Notes: generated by a model from the letters alone, not told the origin. A stretch of DNA of 37,339 nucleotides from a virus (IMGVR_UViG_2585427777_000002:1-37339); one strand, 5' to 3'. Positions 1,987 through 31,910 are shown, counted from the first letter of the stretch. Numbers and translations are program-made.

Positions 1987-2000
1987 AACCATATTTGGTT
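1987..2000. promoter_or_regulatory. palindromic motif AACCATATTTGGTT (second motif family) in the divergent holin/acyltransferase intergenic region
   Basis: Read directly; same 14-mer class recurs at 9218..9231 and 31897..31910; abuts -35-like TTGCCT and -10-like TATAGT. Confidence 0.45.
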
Positions 2001-2105
2001 TGCTCTTGCCTAGTGTCATTATTATTTATATAGTGATATACCAACTTTCAAATTATAATTTATATATTTTAGGACCAAACCCAATACATTTTAAAAGGTG
2101 TAACA

Positions 2106-2909
2106 ATGGAATCTAATGCACTAAAAAAAGCACGACTATTTATAAATGACATAAAATATTGTGTTGAAAACTTTAATATCGATTCAACTTTATATACCGC
2201 TTTCAAGCCAAGTGATATTGGTGTTAAAGGAGATGAAAGCAATACAATATATGTTGCTGACGGTAAGCTTCCGGAAAAACTGATAATTGCTTTTGGAGAA
2301 AAGGCAAAAGACAGTAAAATATTTATTGGAAAAAATGTAAAATGCAGGGGATCGAGAATTGTAATAACTCACGGTGAAAGCCTTTGTTACATCGGAAATA
2401 ACTCACAACTAAATAATGTAACTATGCATATATGGTGCAAATGGGATTTTGTAGTAGTTGGAGAAGGTGTATCAGTTACCTCAACAAGTAATTGGACTAC
2501 TGGAATAAACCCTGGCAATCCTTGTAACGGCATTATTATTGGTGATCACTGCCTTATGAGCCAAGAAATATCTATTAGACCTGCAGATGGACACCAAATT
2601 ATCGAACTCACCACGCGAAAAGTAGTCAACGCTGCAACATCACCTATTATAATCGAACCATATTGCTGGATCGGACAGCGCACAGCAATACTAAAAAATG
2701 TAAGAATTGGTGCATGCTCCATCGTTTCACTTGGTGCTATAGTTACAAAATCATGTAAAAAATTCAGCGCGCTAAGTGGCGTACCAGCCAAAGCAAGATG
2801 CATTGAAGGAAAAATGTGGCTAAGAAACAATGGGGAAGAAGCCAAGAGAATAATGCTTATGTATGAAAAAAGATTTGCAGGCACAGCAGACAGCAGCACA
2901 GCGAAATAA
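2106..2909 (+). CDS. hexapeptide-repeat (left-handed beta-helix) acyltransferase, probable polysaccharide O-acetyltransferase cargo gene
   Basis: 267 aa; repeated [LIV]-G-x4 hexapeptide pattern (IGDHCLMSQEISIRPADG, WIGQRTAILKNVRIGACSIVSLGAIVTKS); AAGGTG RBS; visibly AT-rich against the flanks; opposite strand to neighbours. Confidence 0.7.
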   Translation: MESNALKKARLFINDIKYCVENFNIDSTLYTAFKPSDIGVKGDESNTIYVADGKLPEKLIIAFGEKAKDSKIFIGKNVKCRGSRIVITHGESLCYIGNNSQLNNVTMHIWCKWDFVVVGEGVSVTSTSNWTTGINPGNPCNGIIIGDHCLMSQEISIRPADGHQIIELTTRKVVNAATSPIIIEPYCWIGQRTAILKNVRIGACSIVSLGAIVTKSCKKFSALSGVPAKARCIEGKMWLRNNGEEAKRIMLMYEKRFAGTADSSTAK

Positions 2910-2916
2910 TTATAAT

Positions 2917-2948
2917 AATGGCCGTAATGAGCGGCCATTACATATTAT
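2917..2948. terminator. bidirectional hairpin terminator between acyltransferase and tailspike 3' ends
   Basis: 8-bp stem AATGGCCG/CGGCCATT (2917..2939) followed by an AT-rich run. Confidence 0.5.
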
Positions 2949-3014
2949 TTATTATAACATTAATATATTAGATCTGCTATTTTCTTTTCTTGTATCACCA
3001 TATATAAATATTTA

Positions 3015-30028: not shown

Positions 30029-30064
30029 TATCAAGACGTAAAAAAATGCGCTATCGCGCTGGTA

Positions 30065-30841
30065 TTACTTGATAAATCCTGCCGCCTTTCCCCGCCTGTA
30101 TTCCTCCATCAGCCACTGCGCCGGTGTTATTCCCCCCAGGGTAGCGGCGTTAGGCATACACCCGAAACTTCGCCCTGGTGGATGGTAAACGTCTCTCCCT
30201 GTGTCCGGAGGCGTACTCATGGGTTCTGGCTTTGCCTGTATGCTGATCACCGGATCGGGTATCTGCTGTCCGGAAGCCACCTTTTTCGCCCAATCATCAA
30301 GCAGCCTGCGCGCATGTTTCTCAACCTCAATCTCGCTAAGCTGGCGCTGATACATTGCACGGCGGGTATCACATACGACCCAGTACATAACCGGATGCCG
30401 CCACGGGAATCTTTCGGGACCACCAGGATATAAACTTTTTTCCTTGCTGTACCGGTGAAACTCCGCCATCACATCGTCAATGGTGACGCCAAGAACCATC
30501 TTGCTGTCTTTACACCACTTGATAAATTGCCCTGGCGACGGCCAGAACGGAGATTCACTGGCGCGGGCGTGGCGCATACCAGCGTTAACCTGTTCCATTG
30601 TAGTGATCCCATTCTCCAGAAACGCAAGCATCCATTGCTTACGGAATTCATTAAGTTTGTTCTGCTCCCTTATGGTCGAAACGCTTGCAGGAAATGCAGC
30701 CTGTAACTGGACAAATAGTTCATTGAAAATTCTAGCGACCTGCTCCTTTTTGCCATTGCTGTCACGCCGCTCTTCATGCACAGCAACACCATGCTCACGT
30801 AAGCGATCGTACTCATTGAGAAGTTCTGGAGTTGATTTCAT
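30065..30841 (-). CDS. lambda P-like replication protein (helicase loader)
   Basis: Extended match to lambda P as recalled: AFLENGITTMEQVNAGMRHARASESPFWPSPGQFIKWC versus AFRENGITTMEQVNAGMRVARRQNRPFLPSPGQFVAWC. Confidence 0.85.
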   Translation of the reverse strand: MKSTPELLNEYDRLREHGVAVHEERRDSNGKKEQVARIFNELFVQLQAAFPASVSTIREQNKLNEFRKQWMLAFLENGITTMEQVNAGMRHARASESPFWPSPGQFIKWCKDSKMVLGVTIDDVMAEFHRYSKEKSLYPGGPERFPWRHPVMYWVVCDTRRAMYQRQLSEIEVEKHARRLLDDWAKKVASGQQIPDPVISIQAKPEPMSTPPDTGRDVYHPPGRSFGCMPNAATLGGITPAQWLMEEYRRGKAAGFIK

Positions 30842-31643
30842 CCCACACCCCTTCTATCCAGTCAGTGTTATTCCAGTCAAGCTCATCGCTTTTCCCGACG
30901 TTTTTTGATTTTCCCCTGATATGATTTACGTGCCTGGCGAATTTTTGTTCCCACTGAACCTGCGTGAACACTTTGCCCTCAGCCATCCAGTAATCCCGGA
31001 ATGCAGCAAGTTCAGCAGGTGTAAATTCCGGTTCCGGCAGGGCCGTTCCCCACAGCGCAGCACGCCGTCGAAAATCCGGCGATGGATGCCAGCCATCGGT
31101 CATCGGAAATTTCCCAATAGGTTCACTCAGGCCATCCAGAAATGCAGGTTCTGCCACCTGCAACGGCGTACCGTTCGCTTCACTGGTCGGATCACTCTCG
31201 CGCGCGTGTGCTATGTGTGGGGTTTTATATATATCTTCCTCTTCCTCTTCCTCTGGTAACTCCTTTTGTAACGCTGTTGGCGTTACTTTTTGCGTTACTC
31301 GTTTTCGATGCTCTGCCACTCTTCTATTCGTAAGTGCACGTTTTTTCGATGATTCTCCATTGTGTCGCTCAAAGTTTGGAAGAATTAGTTTGCCGTCATG
31401 ATAAGCAAGCCATCCGACGCTAATGAGGGCGTCAGCAAATCCTGTAATAAAAGCGAGTCTATCAAGTACTCCTTTTGTAACGCTGCCAGCGTTACCGTCT
31501 ATTGTTTGCTGGTCAGCCCATGCCCATATACGAACCAGCTTTCCAAGAACAGCATCTGGATCAATACCCAGAATTTCTGCTATCTGAAAAATTTCAGGTT
31601 TATCAGGAGTGATAACTTCAACCTTAATCCAGCTGCTTGCCAT
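30813..31643 (-). CDS. O-like replication initiation protein (replisome organiser)
   Basis: Directly precedes the P-like gene; AGAGGGG RBS before MASSWIK; acidic EEEEEE linker; iteron-like repeats inside the coding region. Confidence 0.65.
   Translation of the reverse strand: MASSWIKVEVITPDKPEIFQIAEILGIDPDAVLGKLVRIWAWADQQTIDGNAGSVTKGVLDRLAFITGFADALISVGWLAYHDGKLILPNFERHNGESSKKRALTNRRVAEHRKRVTQKVTPTALQKELPEEEEEEDIYKTPHIAHARESDPTSEANGTPLQVAEPAFLDGLSEPIGKFPMTDGWHPSPDFRRRAALWGTALPEPEFTPAELAAFRDYWMAEGKVFTQVQWEQKFARHVNHIRGKSKNVGKSDELDWNNTDWIEGVWDEINSRTSQ
31225..31495. other. putative replication origin inside the O-like gene
   Basis: TTGTAACGCTGTTGGCGTTAC at 31266..31286 and TTGTAACGCTGCCAGCGTTAC at 31476..31496, each preceded by TCCTT; extra GCGTTAC half-site at 31292; AT-rich TTTTATATATAT plus CTTCCT x3 at 31225..31258. 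Confidence 0.45.
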
Positions 31644-31881
31644 AGGTTTCCCCTCTTGCACTCTTTAGTGCACAAGCAAATTCATTACGATGGCGGTTGG
31701 CGCTATTCATTGCACATTCAACACATGTTCCGTTCAGAACATACCTTTCAGAGAGATGGCCGTGACGGCACCGCTTTCCTGTGAAATAGCGATTTAACCC
31801 GGCTTTTGCGGCCTCCATTCTGGTTACTATCTTCAATTTTTCCGCCCCCTTTTTGTTATTGATATTGGCTATTTTGCACAA
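31624..31881 (-). CDS. hypothetical Cys/His-rich (possible zinc-binding) protein, start uncertain
   Basis: ORF contains CRHGH...CVEC; likely start at MEAAKAG (31818); position between the cro-like gene and the replication genes. Confidence 0.4.
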   Translation of the reverse strand: MCKIANINNKKGAEKLKIVTRMEAAKAGLNRYFTGKRCRHGHLSERYVLNGTCVECAMNSANRHRNEFACALKSARGETYGKQLD

Positions 31882-31896
31882 TTGGAAAATTTGATC

Positions 31897-31910
31897 AACC
31901 AGATTTGGTT
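31897..31910. promoter_or_regulatory. palindromic motif AACCAGATTTGGTT (second motif family)
   Basis: Third copy of the AACCA-N4-TGGTT class, adjacent to an imperfect operator at 31914..31931. Confidence 0.45.

What the first reader, a model, noticed from the sequence alone, without database searches (positions are those of the whole stretch)
1987..31910. Second recurring palindrome AACCA-N4-TGGTT at three promoter regions
AACCATATTTGGTT (1987..2000), AACCATATTTGGTT (9218..9231) and AACCAGATTTGGTT (31897..31910) share a 14-bp palindromic core. Each lies just upstream of a -35-like hexamer, in the spacing expected for an activator or second repressor site. Candidate ligands are the Cro-like protein, the Cys/His-rich protein or a host factor.
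Basis: seen in the sequence. Interest (0 to 1): 0.45.

Follow-up and report, generated by a model that had tools for sequence, protein, structure and literature searches.

The report
Second operator type for phage repressor
The repeated 14-bp palindrome is real, conserved in all relatives of this epsilon15/phiV10-like prophage, and is most likely a second kind of operator read by a helix-turn-helix domain in the middle of the prophage repressor that the literature treats only as a dimerization domain.

Summary
Chance would give 0.06.

They belong to a larger family, A-W-C-C-R-N4-Y-G-G-W-T. The window holds six strong copies plus two degenerate ones. The same positions are kept in nine Uetakevirus genomes, eight enterobacterial prophages and 74 of 76 metagenomic relatives.

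The halves vary independently, so this is a protein site, not a hairpin. Each copy lies about 2, 4 or 5 helical turns from a known-type repressor operator (ATTACC-N5-GGTAAT). In predicted promoters it abuts the -35 hexamer or fills the -35/-10 spacer.

The window's repressor (homolog of SPC32H Rep, PDB 5D50) has two HTH domains.
- Relatives of its N-terminal HTH, and of the Cro-like protein, go with TTACC-type operators.
- Relatives of its middle HTH_3 domain go with AWCCR-N4-YGGWT palindromes. These relatives are PAJU2 CI, a stand-alone homolog and others found by a reverse motif search.

Best reading (about 0.6): the palindrome is the operator of Rep's middle HTH, so Rep reads bipartite operators. 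This rests on comparative inference only; no binding was tested.

The parts
1987..2000 (.). Palindrome copy 1 (AACCATATTTGGTT). It lies between the lysis cassette (holin-like gene 1521..1946, minus strand) and a hexapeptide-acyltransferase-like moron (2106..2909, plus strand).
   Evidence: Related phages keep a copy at the equivalent position, 62 bp before the first lysis-cassette gene, although the flanks in the window are not homologous (alignment b_lysis).
5851..5864 (.). Palindrome copy (AACCACATATGGAT) in the divergent region between the tailspike gene (3015..5786, minus) and the antirepressor gene ant (5982..6239, plus). Its centre is 40.5 bp from the Rep N-terminal-type operator at 5890-5906. 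A LexA-box-like CTGT-N8-ATAG lies at 5872-5887.
   Evidence: The ant product matches the SPC32H Ant chain 5D50_E at E 4e-47. Equivalent copies occur in phiV10, TL-2011b, eps15, SPN1S, Tyrion, BUCT554 and Kp4865-1.
6230..6243 (.). Palindrome copy (AACCAGATAAGGTT). Its last TT starts a predicted -35 (TTTGCA, 6242-6247). A 17-bp spacer and a -10 (TTATAT, 6265-6270) follow, then the Rep N-terminal-type operator at 6270-6286. This unit sits upstream of isrK (6322-6398), C4 RNA (6417-6504) and the Bro-N antirepressor gene (6508..7245).
   Evidence: The promoter hexamers were read by eye from the sequence.
9217..9230 (.). Palindrome copy 2 (AACCATATTTGGTT). On the minus strand its last TT starts the -35 TTGATT (9218-9213). 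An 18-bp spacer and the -10 TATCAT (9194-9189) follow, overlapping the Rep N-terminal-type operator at 9174-9190 (centres 41.5 bp apart). This unit sits upstream of isrK (9138-9062), C4 RNA (9037-8953) and the AntA antirepressor gene (8253..8903, minus).
25011..25024 (.). Palindrome copy (AACCACATATGATT) in the divergent region between the head-gene operon (minus strand) and tRNA-Arg (25400-25476, plus). Its centre is 52.5 bp from the Rep N-terminal-type operator at 25062-25078.
   Evidence: (alignment c_head, block conserved in 9 genomes).
31897..31910 (.). Palindrome copy 3 (AACCAGATTTGGTT). On the minus strand it follows the Cro-like gene (31986..32216), its terminator (31964-31945) and a degenerate Rep N-terminal-type operator (31915-31931) at a 4-bp gap. 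Its last TT starts the -35 TTGATC (31898-31893). A 16-bp spacer and a conserved -10-like CAAAAT (31876-31871) follow. Downstream are the Zn-ribbon gene (TTG start at 31836, ends 31624) and the replication genes.
   Evidence: (alignment a_cro_downstream). Several phages have a mosaic breakpoint exactly here.
33055..33068 (.). Degenerate copy (AACCAGATACGCAT) that fills the spacer of the PL-type promoter: TTGACA-tca-[copy]-AATTAT. It lies between two Rep N-terminal-type operators (33012-33028 and 33073-33089).
   Evidence: Full-consensus copies occupy the same place in Tyrion, BUCT554, L013 and L016, and a copy is present in 74 of 76 metagenomic relatives. PAJU2 PL has the same layout: TTGACA-ccct-ATCCGCATGCGCAT-agattt.
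29971..29984 (.). Half copy (minus strand TGTCTTATGTGGTT) in the spacer of the promoter upstream of the DUF1064 gene (29603..29947, minus). It lies between Rep N-terminal-type operators at 30012-30028 and 29950-29966.
   Evidence: Full copies occupy the same place in Tyrion, Kp4865-1, L016 and L018.
32371..32955 (+). Repressor gene rep (194 aa). The N-terminal YdaS/Cro-type HTH spans residues about 21-61. The middle HTH_3 domain spans residues 106-147 (nt 32686-32811), with recognition helix SGVAQVTISR. The C-terminal part is the tetramerization segment. Residues 88-192 (nt 32632-32946) are the proposed reader of the palindrome.
   Evidence: (5D50_A, E 3.5e-42). The domain names come from PMC9986798.
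31986..32216 (-). Cro-like gene (gp39 family, 76 aa, five-helix HTH). It was considered as the ligand and is disfavoured.

Best explanation
The palindrome (consensus AACCATATATGGTT; A-W-C-C-R-N4-Y-G-G-W-T) is an operator read by a dimer of the HTH_3 domain in the middle of the prophage repressor Rep (residues about 88-155). The SPC32H Rep literature calls this domain the 'middle dimerization domain'.

Rep would then carry two DNA readers. Its N-terminal Cro/YdaS-type HTH reads ATTACC-N5-GGTAAT. Its middle HTH_3 reads the second palindrome. Nearly every lytic promoter offers both site types on the same face of the helix, with centres 19.5, about 41.5 or 52.5 bp apart. These promoters include the replication operon after the cro terminator, three antirepressor operons, PL, and the lysis, head and tailspike regions. 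One Rep tetramer could therefore clamp a bipartite operator and occlude the -35 hexamer or the spacer. When the antirepressor Ant breaks up the tetramer, that multi-point hold is lost.

Shown here: the motif, its conservation, its phasing with the other operator, and the link between this HTH family and this palindrome in unrelated phages.

Inferred: that Rep's middle domain binds the motif, and that the effect is repression.
For: (1) The motif is real and conserved.
- Three exact copies against 0.06 expected.
- Six strong copies in the window against 0.15 expected.
- The same positions are kept in TL-2011b, phiV10, eps15, Tyrion, SPN1S, BUCT554, Kp4865-1 and PAT1.
- They are also kept in eight prophages of other Enterobacterales.
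- In IMG/VR relatives, 74 of 76 keep the site after cro and 74 of 76 keep the PL-spacer site, with 11 and 15 sequence variants that preserve C3C4, G11G12 and mostly A7T8.
- Site 1 is retained although both of its flanks are non-homologous to those of other phages.

(2) It behaves as a protein site. The half-sites vary independently: ATCC...GGTT and A5 with C10 are common, and no compensatory changes occur.

(3) It is coupled to the Rep N-terminal-type operator.
- Centre-to-centre distances are only 19.5, 40.5-43.5 or 52.5 bp.
- In all 74 relatives the gap to GGTAAT at the post-cro site is exactly 4 bp.

(4) Each of Rep's two HTH domains has relatives with its own operator type.
- Rep 1-68 is 38% identical to the N-terminus of the pOW20-A CI, whose OR and OL carry AATACC-N5-GGTATT.
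- Rep 4-68 is 39% identical to the PseuP_224 cI, which is flanked by ATTACC-N4-GGTAAT.
- Rep 84-143 is 40% identical (E 5e-11) to the N-terminal HTH_3 of PAJU2 gp59, a canonical HTH_3 + Peptidase_S24 repressor.
- The PAJU2 OR and PL carry ATCTATTCATGGAT, AACCGTATATGAAT, AGCCGCATACGGAT, ATCCGCATGCGCAT and ATCCACGGATGGAT.
- IMG/VR locus L029 has two divergent proteins of this HTH family, with AACCGATAACGGTT and AACCGTTTATGGAA between them and AACCGTTTTCGGTT downstream.

(5) A reverse test supports the link.
- I scanned IMG/VR for tandem AACCR-N4-YGGTT pairs.
- Searching those 120 loci with an HMM of the HTH found L223, L169, L205 and L215 next to the pairs.
- The L223 protein is a stand-alone homolog of all of Rep 88-192 (41% identical, E 1e-20). 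It is transcribed divergently from a PAJU2-Cro-like gene (E 1e-15).
- The L169 protein is 38% identical (E 4e-11).
- A permuted-palindrome control gave one weak hit and none below E 1e-4, against three in the test set.

(6) The geometry is the same. In L223 and L169 one operator overlaps a TTGACA -35 by its last TT and another fills the spacer. These are the two placements seen in the window.

(7) Rep is the only protein in the window with this HTH signature.

(8) Published structure summaries place two pairs of the middle domains at the periphery of the tetramer, about 100 A apart. They also state that the mechanism of repression is not well characterized (PMC9986798).
Against: No binding experiment exists, and everything rests on association.

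The literature as summarised in PMC9638917 and PMC9986798 assigns DNA binding to the N-terminal domain and calls the middle domain a dimerization domain. I could not read the primary SPC32H papers. They may contain footprints that either already cover the palindrome or exclude it.

I could not check whether the recognition helices of paired middle domains in 5D4Z are exposed and correctly spaced.

The putative recognition helix varies among Reps (QVTISR, QATINR, QNTVSR, PATVNR) while the motif does not visibly change. Only T and R are invariant.

More distant HTH relatives (Ralstonia phage Dina, Bcep176, vB_EcoM-689R2) show no such palindromes.

Site 1 in the window has no N-terminal-type operator in phase, and no convincing promoter toward the lysis genes.

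The promoter hexamers are consensus predictions only.
Confidence: 0.6

Rival explanations
1. The palindrome is the operator of the Cro-like protein (gp39 family, 31986..32216). This protein is made from the rightward early promoter and would then repress or activate the other lytic promoters. This is one of the reader's proposals.
For: gp39 sits in the cro position. It is predicted with high confidence (pLDDT 88) to be a five-helix Cro/C1-type HTH, closest to YdaS and to restriction-modification controller proteins. Its putative recognition helix AGTTSHYIQTH is nearly invariant across relatives that are 57-100% identical, matching the invariance of the motif. A site centred near -41 at four promoters would suit a controller-like dual regulator.
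Against: The only outside homolog (pOW20-A PSYG_00019, 47.5% identical over the HTH, E 5e-14) sits in a classical CI/Cro switch. The operators there are AATACC-N5-GGTATT, and no AACCA-type motif is present. By homology, gp39 should therefore share the ATTACC-type operators with the Rep N-terminal domain. No copy of the palindrome lies in the rep-cro intergenic region, where a Cro would be expected to act. In other phages the palindrome tracks a different HTH family.
Confidence: 0.12
2. The palindrome is bound by some other factor. Candidates are a host regulator common to Enterobacterales, or another conserved small phage protein: the Cys/His Zn-ribbon gp40, the AlpA-like protein, the PerC-like protein, gp36 or gp37.
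For: The motif is conserved in phages of Escherichia, Salmonella, Klebsiella, Enterobacter, Citrobacter and others. Several small conserved proteins of unknown function are present in all these genomes. The conserved central AT step could reflect a DNA-bending protein.
Against: The same palindrome accompanies one HTH family in Pseudomonas phage PAJU2 and in unrelated metagenomic phages, which argues against an enterobacterial host factor. From my own knowledge of the consensus sequences, it does not fit IHF (WATCAANNNNTTR), LexA (CTGT-N8-ACAG), CRP or FNR. It has C and G where NrdR boxes have W. No evidence links gp40 or the other proteins to DNA of this kind, and Pfam and NCBIfam give them no DNA-binding assignment beyond AlpA and PerC. 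The gp49/phiV10p55-type 'transcriptional regulator' is absent from the window although the motif is kept.
Confidence: 0.15
3. Whatever binds, the site is an activator site (class II type, centred near -41) that turns on delayed and late lytic promoters. It is not a repressor operator.
For: At four predicted promoters the palindrome overlaps the first two bases of the -35 hexamer, giving a centre near -40.5 or -41.5. The three late regions show a good -10-like hexamer 7-10 bp downstream of the palindrome and no recognisable -35 (read by eye). That pattern is what activator-dependent promoters look like.
Against: In PL-type promoters the palindrome fills the -35/-10 spacer of an otherwise strong promoter (TTGACA, 17 bp, AATTAT). 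That is a repressing position. The -35 hexamers at the -41 sites already match 4 of 6. Stand-alone repressors of the same HTH family use both placements at a single promoter. All positions are consensus predictions without mapped transcription starts.
Confidence: 0.1
4. The palindrome acts as an RNA or DNA hairpin (weak terminator, nut/boxB-like site or processing site), or is a non-functional relic of an ancestral operator.
For: In each copy a 5-bp stem with a 4-nt loop can be drawn. At site 3 a T-run follows on the + strand. The eps15 record annotates an RNase III site next to the lysis-region copy.
Against: There is no covariation: positions 2/13 and 5/10 change independently and create mismatches. 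The terminator scan does not flag the copies. Copies occur in both orientations relative to transcription. Strict conservation of C3C4, A7T8 and G11G12 across flanks that have diverged argues against a relic.
Confidence: 0.03

Closest known systems
Rep-Ant immunity system of Salmonella phage SPC32H / epsilon15-like phages (PDB 5D50, 5D4Z), with its ATTACC-N5-GGTAAT repressor sites as annotated in the epsilon15 record
   Same: The window encodes a Rep homolog (E 3.5e-42) and an Ant homolog (E 4e-47). It carries about 15 ATTACC-N5-GGTAAT sites at the same promoters. The palindrome always accompanies these sites.
   Different: The palindrome is a separate site class: AWCC half-sites, six rather than five bases between CC and GG, and a conserved central AT. 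It is not annotated in the epsilon15 record and I found it in no paper I could search. The published domain map, as summarised in PMC9986798, gives the middle domain no DNA-binding role.
CI-type repressor of Pseudomonas phage PAJU2 (gp59, HTH_3 + Peptidase_S24) with its OR/PL operators, and the stand-alone homologs in IMG/VR loci L223, L169 and L029
   Same: The HTH is homologous to Rep 84-143 or 88-192 (E 5e-11 to 1e-20). The operator pattern is the same, A-W-C-C-R-N4-Y-G-G-W-T. The placements are the same, overlapping the -35 by two bases or filling the spacer.
   Different: In those phages the HTH is the only DNA reader, and the operators come in tandem arrays 18-24 bp apart. In the window the domain is fused behind a second, unrelated HTH, and each promoter has one palindrome paired with the other operator type. 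The operators of those phages are themselves inferred here, not experimentally defined.
Lambda-type CI/Cro operators (OL, OR)
   Same: These are short palindromes overlapping core promoter elements, present in several copies, read by HTH dimers, and bound cooperatively between sites on one face of the DNA.
   Different: Lambda uses one operator alphabet shared by CI and Cro, confined to two regions. Here there are two alphabets, spread over nearly all lytic promoters of the genome, including late ones.
Bipartite HTH readers such as POU and paired domains (a 'works like' comparison only)
   Same: One polypeptide has two different HTH modules joined by a linker, each reading its own sub-site at a fixed spacing.
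   Different: There is no homology claim. Those are eukaryotic monomeric readers of contiguous half-sites, whereas here both modules act as pairs within a tetramer.

Membership tests
Operator of an HTH_3 (XRE/CI-type) phage repressor of the PAJU2-gp59 / Rep-middle-domain family | A short palindrome with two about 5-bp half-sites roughly one helical turn apart, whose halves vary independently | tested here: met
   A-W-C-C-R-N4-Y-G-G-W-T, with no stem covariation.
Operator of an HTH_3 (XRE/CI-type) phage repressor of the PAJU2-gp59 / Rep-middle-domain family | Several copies that overlap core promoter elements of genes silent in the lysogen | tested here: inconclusive
   Six to eight copies lie in promoter regions. 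Overlap with the -35 hexamer or the spacer rests on consensus hexamers (and by eye). No transcription starts are mapped.
Operator of an HTH_3 (XRE/CI-type) phage repressor of the PAJU2-gp59 / Rep-middle-domain family | A cognate HTH protein of that family is encoded by the same element | tested here: met
   Rep residues 88-155. HTH_3 scores E 1.2e-9. Similarity to PAJU2 gp59, L223 and L169 is shown. It is the only such HTH in the window.
Operator of an HTH_3 (XRE/CI-type) phage repressor of the PAJU2-gp59 / Rep-middle-domain family | Homologous HTH proteins elsewhere are flanked by the same palindrome, and the palindrome predicts the HTH | tested here: met
   Forward direction: PAJU2 and L029. 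Reverse direction: L223, L169, L205 and L215 among 120 tandem-pair loci, against no hit below E 1e-4 in a permuted-palindrome control.
Operator of an HTH_3 (XRE/CI-type) phage repressor of the PAJU2-gp59 / Rep-middle-domain family | Direct, sequence-specific binding by the protein | not testable with these tools
   This needs EMSA or footprinting, or inspection of the 5D4Z coordinates.
SPC32H/epsilon15 Rep N-terminal-domain operator (ATTACC-N5-GGTAAT) | TTACC half-sites separated by 5 bp, with a variable centre | tested here: not met
   The palindrome has AWCC half-sites, 6 bp between CC and GG, and an invariant central AT. The window has 12 copies of TTACC-N5-GGTAA and no intermediates.
Class II transcription-activator site (CRP/FNR/lambda CI at PRM type) | A fixed position centred near -41.5 at all target promoters | tested here: not met
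   The predicted centre is about -40.5 at four promoters, but about -19.5 at PL-type promoters and about -27 to -29 at late regions.
Class II transcription-activator site (CRP/FNR/lambda CI at PRM type) | Target promoters depend on the factor | not testable with these tools
   This needs reporter assays.
Intrinsic terminator or RNA hairpin (nut/boxB-like) | Stem maintained by compensatory changes, G+C-rich, followed by a U-run | tested here: not met
   mismatching combinations are common; the terminator scan does not flag the copies.
Host-factor sites (IHF, LexA, NrdR) | A match to the factor's consensus | tested here: not met
   Direct reading against consensus sequences recalled from my own knowledge: WATCAANNNNTTR, CTGT-N8-ACAG and acaCwAtATaTwGtgt. 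The invariant C4 and G11 clash with the NrdR W positions. A separate LexA-like box lies at 5872-5887, beside one copy but not within it.

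The most novel reading that the evidence does not exclude
The Uetakevirus repressor is a true two-headed reader. It arose by fusing the DNA-binding domains of two different CI lineages, a pOW20-A/PseuP_224-type N-terminal HTH and a PAJU2-type HTH_3, onto a tetramerization module. Each head keeps its ancestral operator alphabet. Every lytic promoter of the phage has evolved a bipartite operator, in helical phase, that needs both heads. If so, the domain described as a mere 'middle dimerization domain' in the solved SPC32H Rep structure is a second operator-binding domain. Ant-driven breakup of the tetramer would then work by destroying this multi-point grip.
Probability: 0.5. 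Interest if true: 0.7.

Novelty: new variant of a known kind. Interest (0 to 1): 0.6.

Why it matters
SPC32H Rep-Ant is a structurally solved model for antirepressor-driven prophage induction. Yet a 2023 paper states that how the repressor represses is poorly characterized (PMC9986798).

This analysis proposes a second, conserved operator class, paired in phase with the known one at essentially all lytic promoters. It also proposes a specific domain to read that class. A few gel shifts with existing constructs could test both.

If correct, three things follow:
- The domain map of a solved repressor would change.
- It would explain why the tetramer, rather than the dimer, is needed for tight binding.
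- It would give a clear example of a repressor built by fusing two DNA-binding domains that each keep their own operator.

It would also improve annotation of regulatory sites in epsilon15/phiV10-type prophages of E. coli O157 and Salmonella, some of which are used as reporter or typing phages. If wrong, the palindrome is still a conserved regulatory site whose ligand remains to be found.

Tried and rejected
(1) RNA hairpin, terminator or nut-like element. Rejected because there is no covariation and no terminator call.

(2) Degenerate copy of the ATTACC-N5-GGTAAT operator. Rejected because the spacing and the centre differ and no intermediates exist.

(3) Cro-like gp39 as ligand. I pursued this with a homolog search, an alignment, a structure prediction and a fold search. 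I downgraded it after the pOW20-A comparison.

(4) The gp49/phiV10p55-type 'transcriptional regulator' as ligand. Rejected because it is absent from the window.

(5) Host factors (IHF, Fis, CRP, FNR, LexA, NrdR, NtrC and GntR-type boxes). I compared them only from memory of their consensus sequences and none fits.

(6) Lambda CII-like pRE reading of site 3 on the + strand. There is no usable -35/-10 on that strand, either in the window or in relatives.

(7) More distant relatives of the HTH_3 domain (Ralstonia phage Dina, Bcep176, vB_EcoM-689R2). They show no such palindromes and have different recognition helices, so they are uninformative.

(8) A protein-database search with the PAJU2 N-terminal domain found nothing.

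(9) Primary papers on epsilon15 and SPC32H were not held. Searches for the motif sequence and for PAJU2 operators found nothing relevant.

(10) Promoter assignment for the lysis, head and tailspike regions could not be settled by eye or with the consensus scanner.

Full report
**Observation.** Chance would give 0.06, and none of 100 shuffles reached three. The copies share 13 of 14 bases but have unrelated flanks. Among all 5+5 palindromes this is the second most frequent in the window, after TTACC-N5-GGTAA.

**What the window is.** It is an epsilon15/phiV10/TL-2011b-type (Uetakevirus-like) prophage, inverted relative to the TL-2011b record.
- It encodes a repressor homologous to SPC32H Rep (PDB 5D50_A, E 3.5e-42).
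- It encodes the small antirepressor Ant (5982..6239; 5D50_E, E 4e-47).
- It has two further antirepressor genes, each preceded by isrK-like and C4 antisense RNAs.
- The epsilon15 record annotates 'repressor' binding sites of the form ATTACC-N5-GGTAAT. The window has about 15 of them, often in pairs about 62 bp apart.

**The palindrome is a conserved family.** Relaxed searches in nine related genomes show copies at the same relative positions:
- after the Cro-like gene and its terminator (site 3);
- upstream of the lysis cassette (site 1);
- upstream of the antirepressor operons (site 2, 6230 and 5851);
- upstream of the head genes (25011);
- in several phages, inside the spacers of the PL-type and DUF1064/RuvC-type promoters.

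The logo from 19 distinct instances is A-W-C-C-R-N-A-T-N-Y-G-G-W-T. C3C4 and G11G12 are almost invariant, as is A7T8. With this matrix the window has six strong copies, against 0.15 expected, plus a degenerate PL copy at 33055 and a half copy at 29971-29984.

Eight prophages from Citrobacter, Kluyvera, Buttiauxella, Klebsiella and other genera keep the post-cro region; seven have a scoring copy and Kluyvera (L014) has a degenerate one. Of 76 IMG/VR relatives, 74 keep the post-cro copy, always exactly 4 bp from a GGTAAT half-site and always fused to GAT(C/A). Another 74 keep the PL-spacer copy.

Positions 2/13 and 5/10 change independently and create mismatches. The element is a two-half-site protein target, not a hairpin. 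The terminator scan does not flag it.

**Geometry.** The distance from each copy to the nearest ATTACC-type operator takes only the values 19.5, 40.5-43.5 or 52.5 bp, which is close to 2, 4 and 5 helical turns.

For sites 2 and 3, and for the copies at 6230 and 5851, the last two bases of the palindrome are the first two of a -35-like hexamer on the strand of the downstream operon (TTGATT, TTGATC, TTTGCA, ATAGAA). For sites 2, 6230 and 5851 the -10 overlaps an ATTACC-type operator (read by eye). This puts the palindrome near -40.5.

In PL-type promoters the palindrome fills the spacer between TTGACA and AATTAT, near -19.5. At the late regions a good -10-like hexamer lies 7-10 bp downstream and no -35 is recognisable. 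These are consensus readings only. No transcription starts are known to me.

**Who binds it.** I first pursued the Cro-like protein (gp39 family).
- It is a narrow, highly conserved family without a Pfam model.
- It is predicted to be a five-helix Cro/C1-type HTH.
- Its only outside homolog is in Psychrobacter phage pOW20-A. There it sits opposite a CI whose N-terminus is 38% identical to the Rep N-terminal domain. The operators of that switch are AATACC-N5-GGTATT, and no AACCA-type motif is present.
- Pseudomonas phage PseuP_224 has a cI related to the Rep N-terminal domain and is flanked by ATTACC-N4-GGTAAT.

So the N-terminal HTH of Rep, and by the usual CI/Cro logic gp39, belong with the ATTACC-type operator.

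Rep has a second HTH, Pfam HTH_3 at residues 106-147.
- Its closest relative in the phage collection is the N-terminal DNA-binding domain of PAJU2 gp59, a canonical HTH_3 + Peptidase_S24 repressor. It is 40% identical (E 5e-11), with recognition helix SGVAQSTISR against SGVAQVTISR in the window.
- The PAJU2 repressor-cro intergenic region and its PL-like promoter contain five 14-mers that fit the logo. One of them fills the spacer after TTGACA, exactly as in the window's PL.
- A metagenomic contig (L029) has two divergent proteins of this HTH family, with AACCG-N4-CGGTT-type palindromes between and beside them.

I then ran the test in reverse by scanning IMG/VR for tandem AACCR-N4-YGGTT pairs. 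Searching the 120 loci returned with an HMM of the HTH found the following next to the pairs:
- L223, a stand-alone homolog of the whole of Rep 88-192 (41% identical, E 1e-20), divergent from a PAJU2-Cro-like gene;
- L169 (38% identical, E 4e-11);
- L205 and L215.

A control with a permuted palindrome gave one weak hit and none below E 1e-4, against three in the test set. In L223 and L169 one operator overlaps a TTGACA -35 by its last TT and another lies in the spacer. These are the two placements used in the window. Rep is the only protein in the window with this HTH signature, and no PAJU2-Cro homolog is present.

**Literature.** I found no description of this palindrome. The primary epsilon15 and SPC32H papers were not available to me. 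Two papers summarise the SPC32H work.
- Rep binds DNA as a tetramer, and the pairs of N-terminal domains that bind a palindrome come from different dimers (PMC9638917).
- Between the N-terminal DNA-binding domain and the C-terminal tetramerization/Ant-binding module lies a 'dimerization domain (MDD)'. Two pairs of these domains sit about 100 A apart in the tetramer.

The HTH_3 domain discussed here corresponds to that MDD.

**Mechanism proposed.** Rep reads two operator alphabets, ATTACC-N5-GGTAAT with its N-terminal HTH pairs and the palindrome with its middle HTH_3 pairs. The two site types are set in helical phase at nearly all lytic promoters. One tetramer can therefore hold a promoter at several points and cover the -35 hexamer or the spacer.
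- Shown: the motif, its conservation, its phasing, the homologies, and the association of each HTH family with one operator type.
- Inferred: actual binding by the middle domain, repression as the outcome, and the role of tetramer breakup by Ant.

I put this at about 0.6.

**Rivals.**
- The Cro-like protein as ligand (about 0.12).
- Another phage or host factor (about 0.15).
- An activator role at some sites. This concerns the outcome rather than the ligand (about 0.1).
- A hairpin or relic (about 0.03).

Points against the main reading:
- It is purely associative.
- The recognition helix varies among Reps while the motif does not.
- More distant HTH relatives show no such sites.
- Site 1 in the window has no in-phase ATTACC-type partner and no convincing promoter toward the lysis genes.

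**Novelty.** Phage repressor operators are ordinary. What would be new is a second operator class paired with the known one, assigned to a domain of a solved repressor that is currently regarded as structural. This is a new variant of a known kind, and it can be tested directly with existing constructs.

Noticed in passing
window 6322-6398 and 6417-6504 (+); 9138-9062 and 9037-8953 (-): Two antirepressor genes (Bro-N 6508..7245 and AntA 8253..8903) are each preceded by an isrK-like sRNA and a C4 antisense RNA, with Rfam matches above the gathering score. This is a P1 immI / Gifsy-1-like layer of post-transcriptional control. The two leaders have 88% mean column identity and lie in inverted orientation.
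   Followed up: partly
window 5872-5887: A LexA-box-like sequence, CTGTAAATACGAATAG (one mismatch to CTGT-N8-ACAG), lies between the palindrome copy and the Rep operator upstream of the SPC32H-type ant gene. From memory, this fits the reported SOS control of ant in SPC32H.
   Followed up: no
window about 31893: Several related phages (EC.W1-9, phiv142-3, BP9, YDC107_2, Tyrion) lose homology to the window exactly at the left edge of site 3. The palindrome plus GGTAAT therefore marks a mosaic module boundary between the immunity and replication modules.
   Followed up: no
Some form pairs 61-62 bp or 18 bp apart. The -10 hexamer is often formed by 4 bp plus the first AT of the operator.
   Followed up: partly
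window 25400-25476 (+): A tRNA-Arg (anticodon TCT) is transcribed away from the head genes, downstream of a perfect TTGACA at 25041-25046.
   Followed up: no
window 2106-2909 (+): A hexapeptide-repeat acyltransferase-like gene replaces the O-acetylase/Gtr/O-antigen conversion genes that other family members carry at this position, and it is in the opposite orientation. A sigma-70-like promoter (TTGCCT, 17 bp, TATAGT, 2006-2034) starts 5 bp after palindrome copy 1.
   Followed up: no
window 28328-29947: The gp49/phiV10p55-type 'transcriptional regulator' found just before the terminase genes in epsilon15, phiV10, TL-2011b and Tyrion has no counterpart in the window. An Ead/Ea22-like gene sits there instead.
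   Followed up: partly
window 31624-31836 (-): The Cys/His-rich ORF most likely starts at the TTG at 31836, which aligns with the ATG of its homologs, and not at 31881. It is a conserved Zn-ribbon protein of about 70 aa (CxHxH...CxxC, phrog_1081) of unknown function, and it is the first gene of the replication operon.
   Followed up: no
L019 (pOW20-A) 8760-9710; L344 (PseuP_224) upstream and downstream of cI: Canonical S24-type CI repressors whose N-termini resemble the Rep N-terminal domain use operators with the same ATTACC or ATACC half-site, with N5 or N4 spacers. This half-site specificity therefore appears old and spans several phage lineages.
   Followed up: partly
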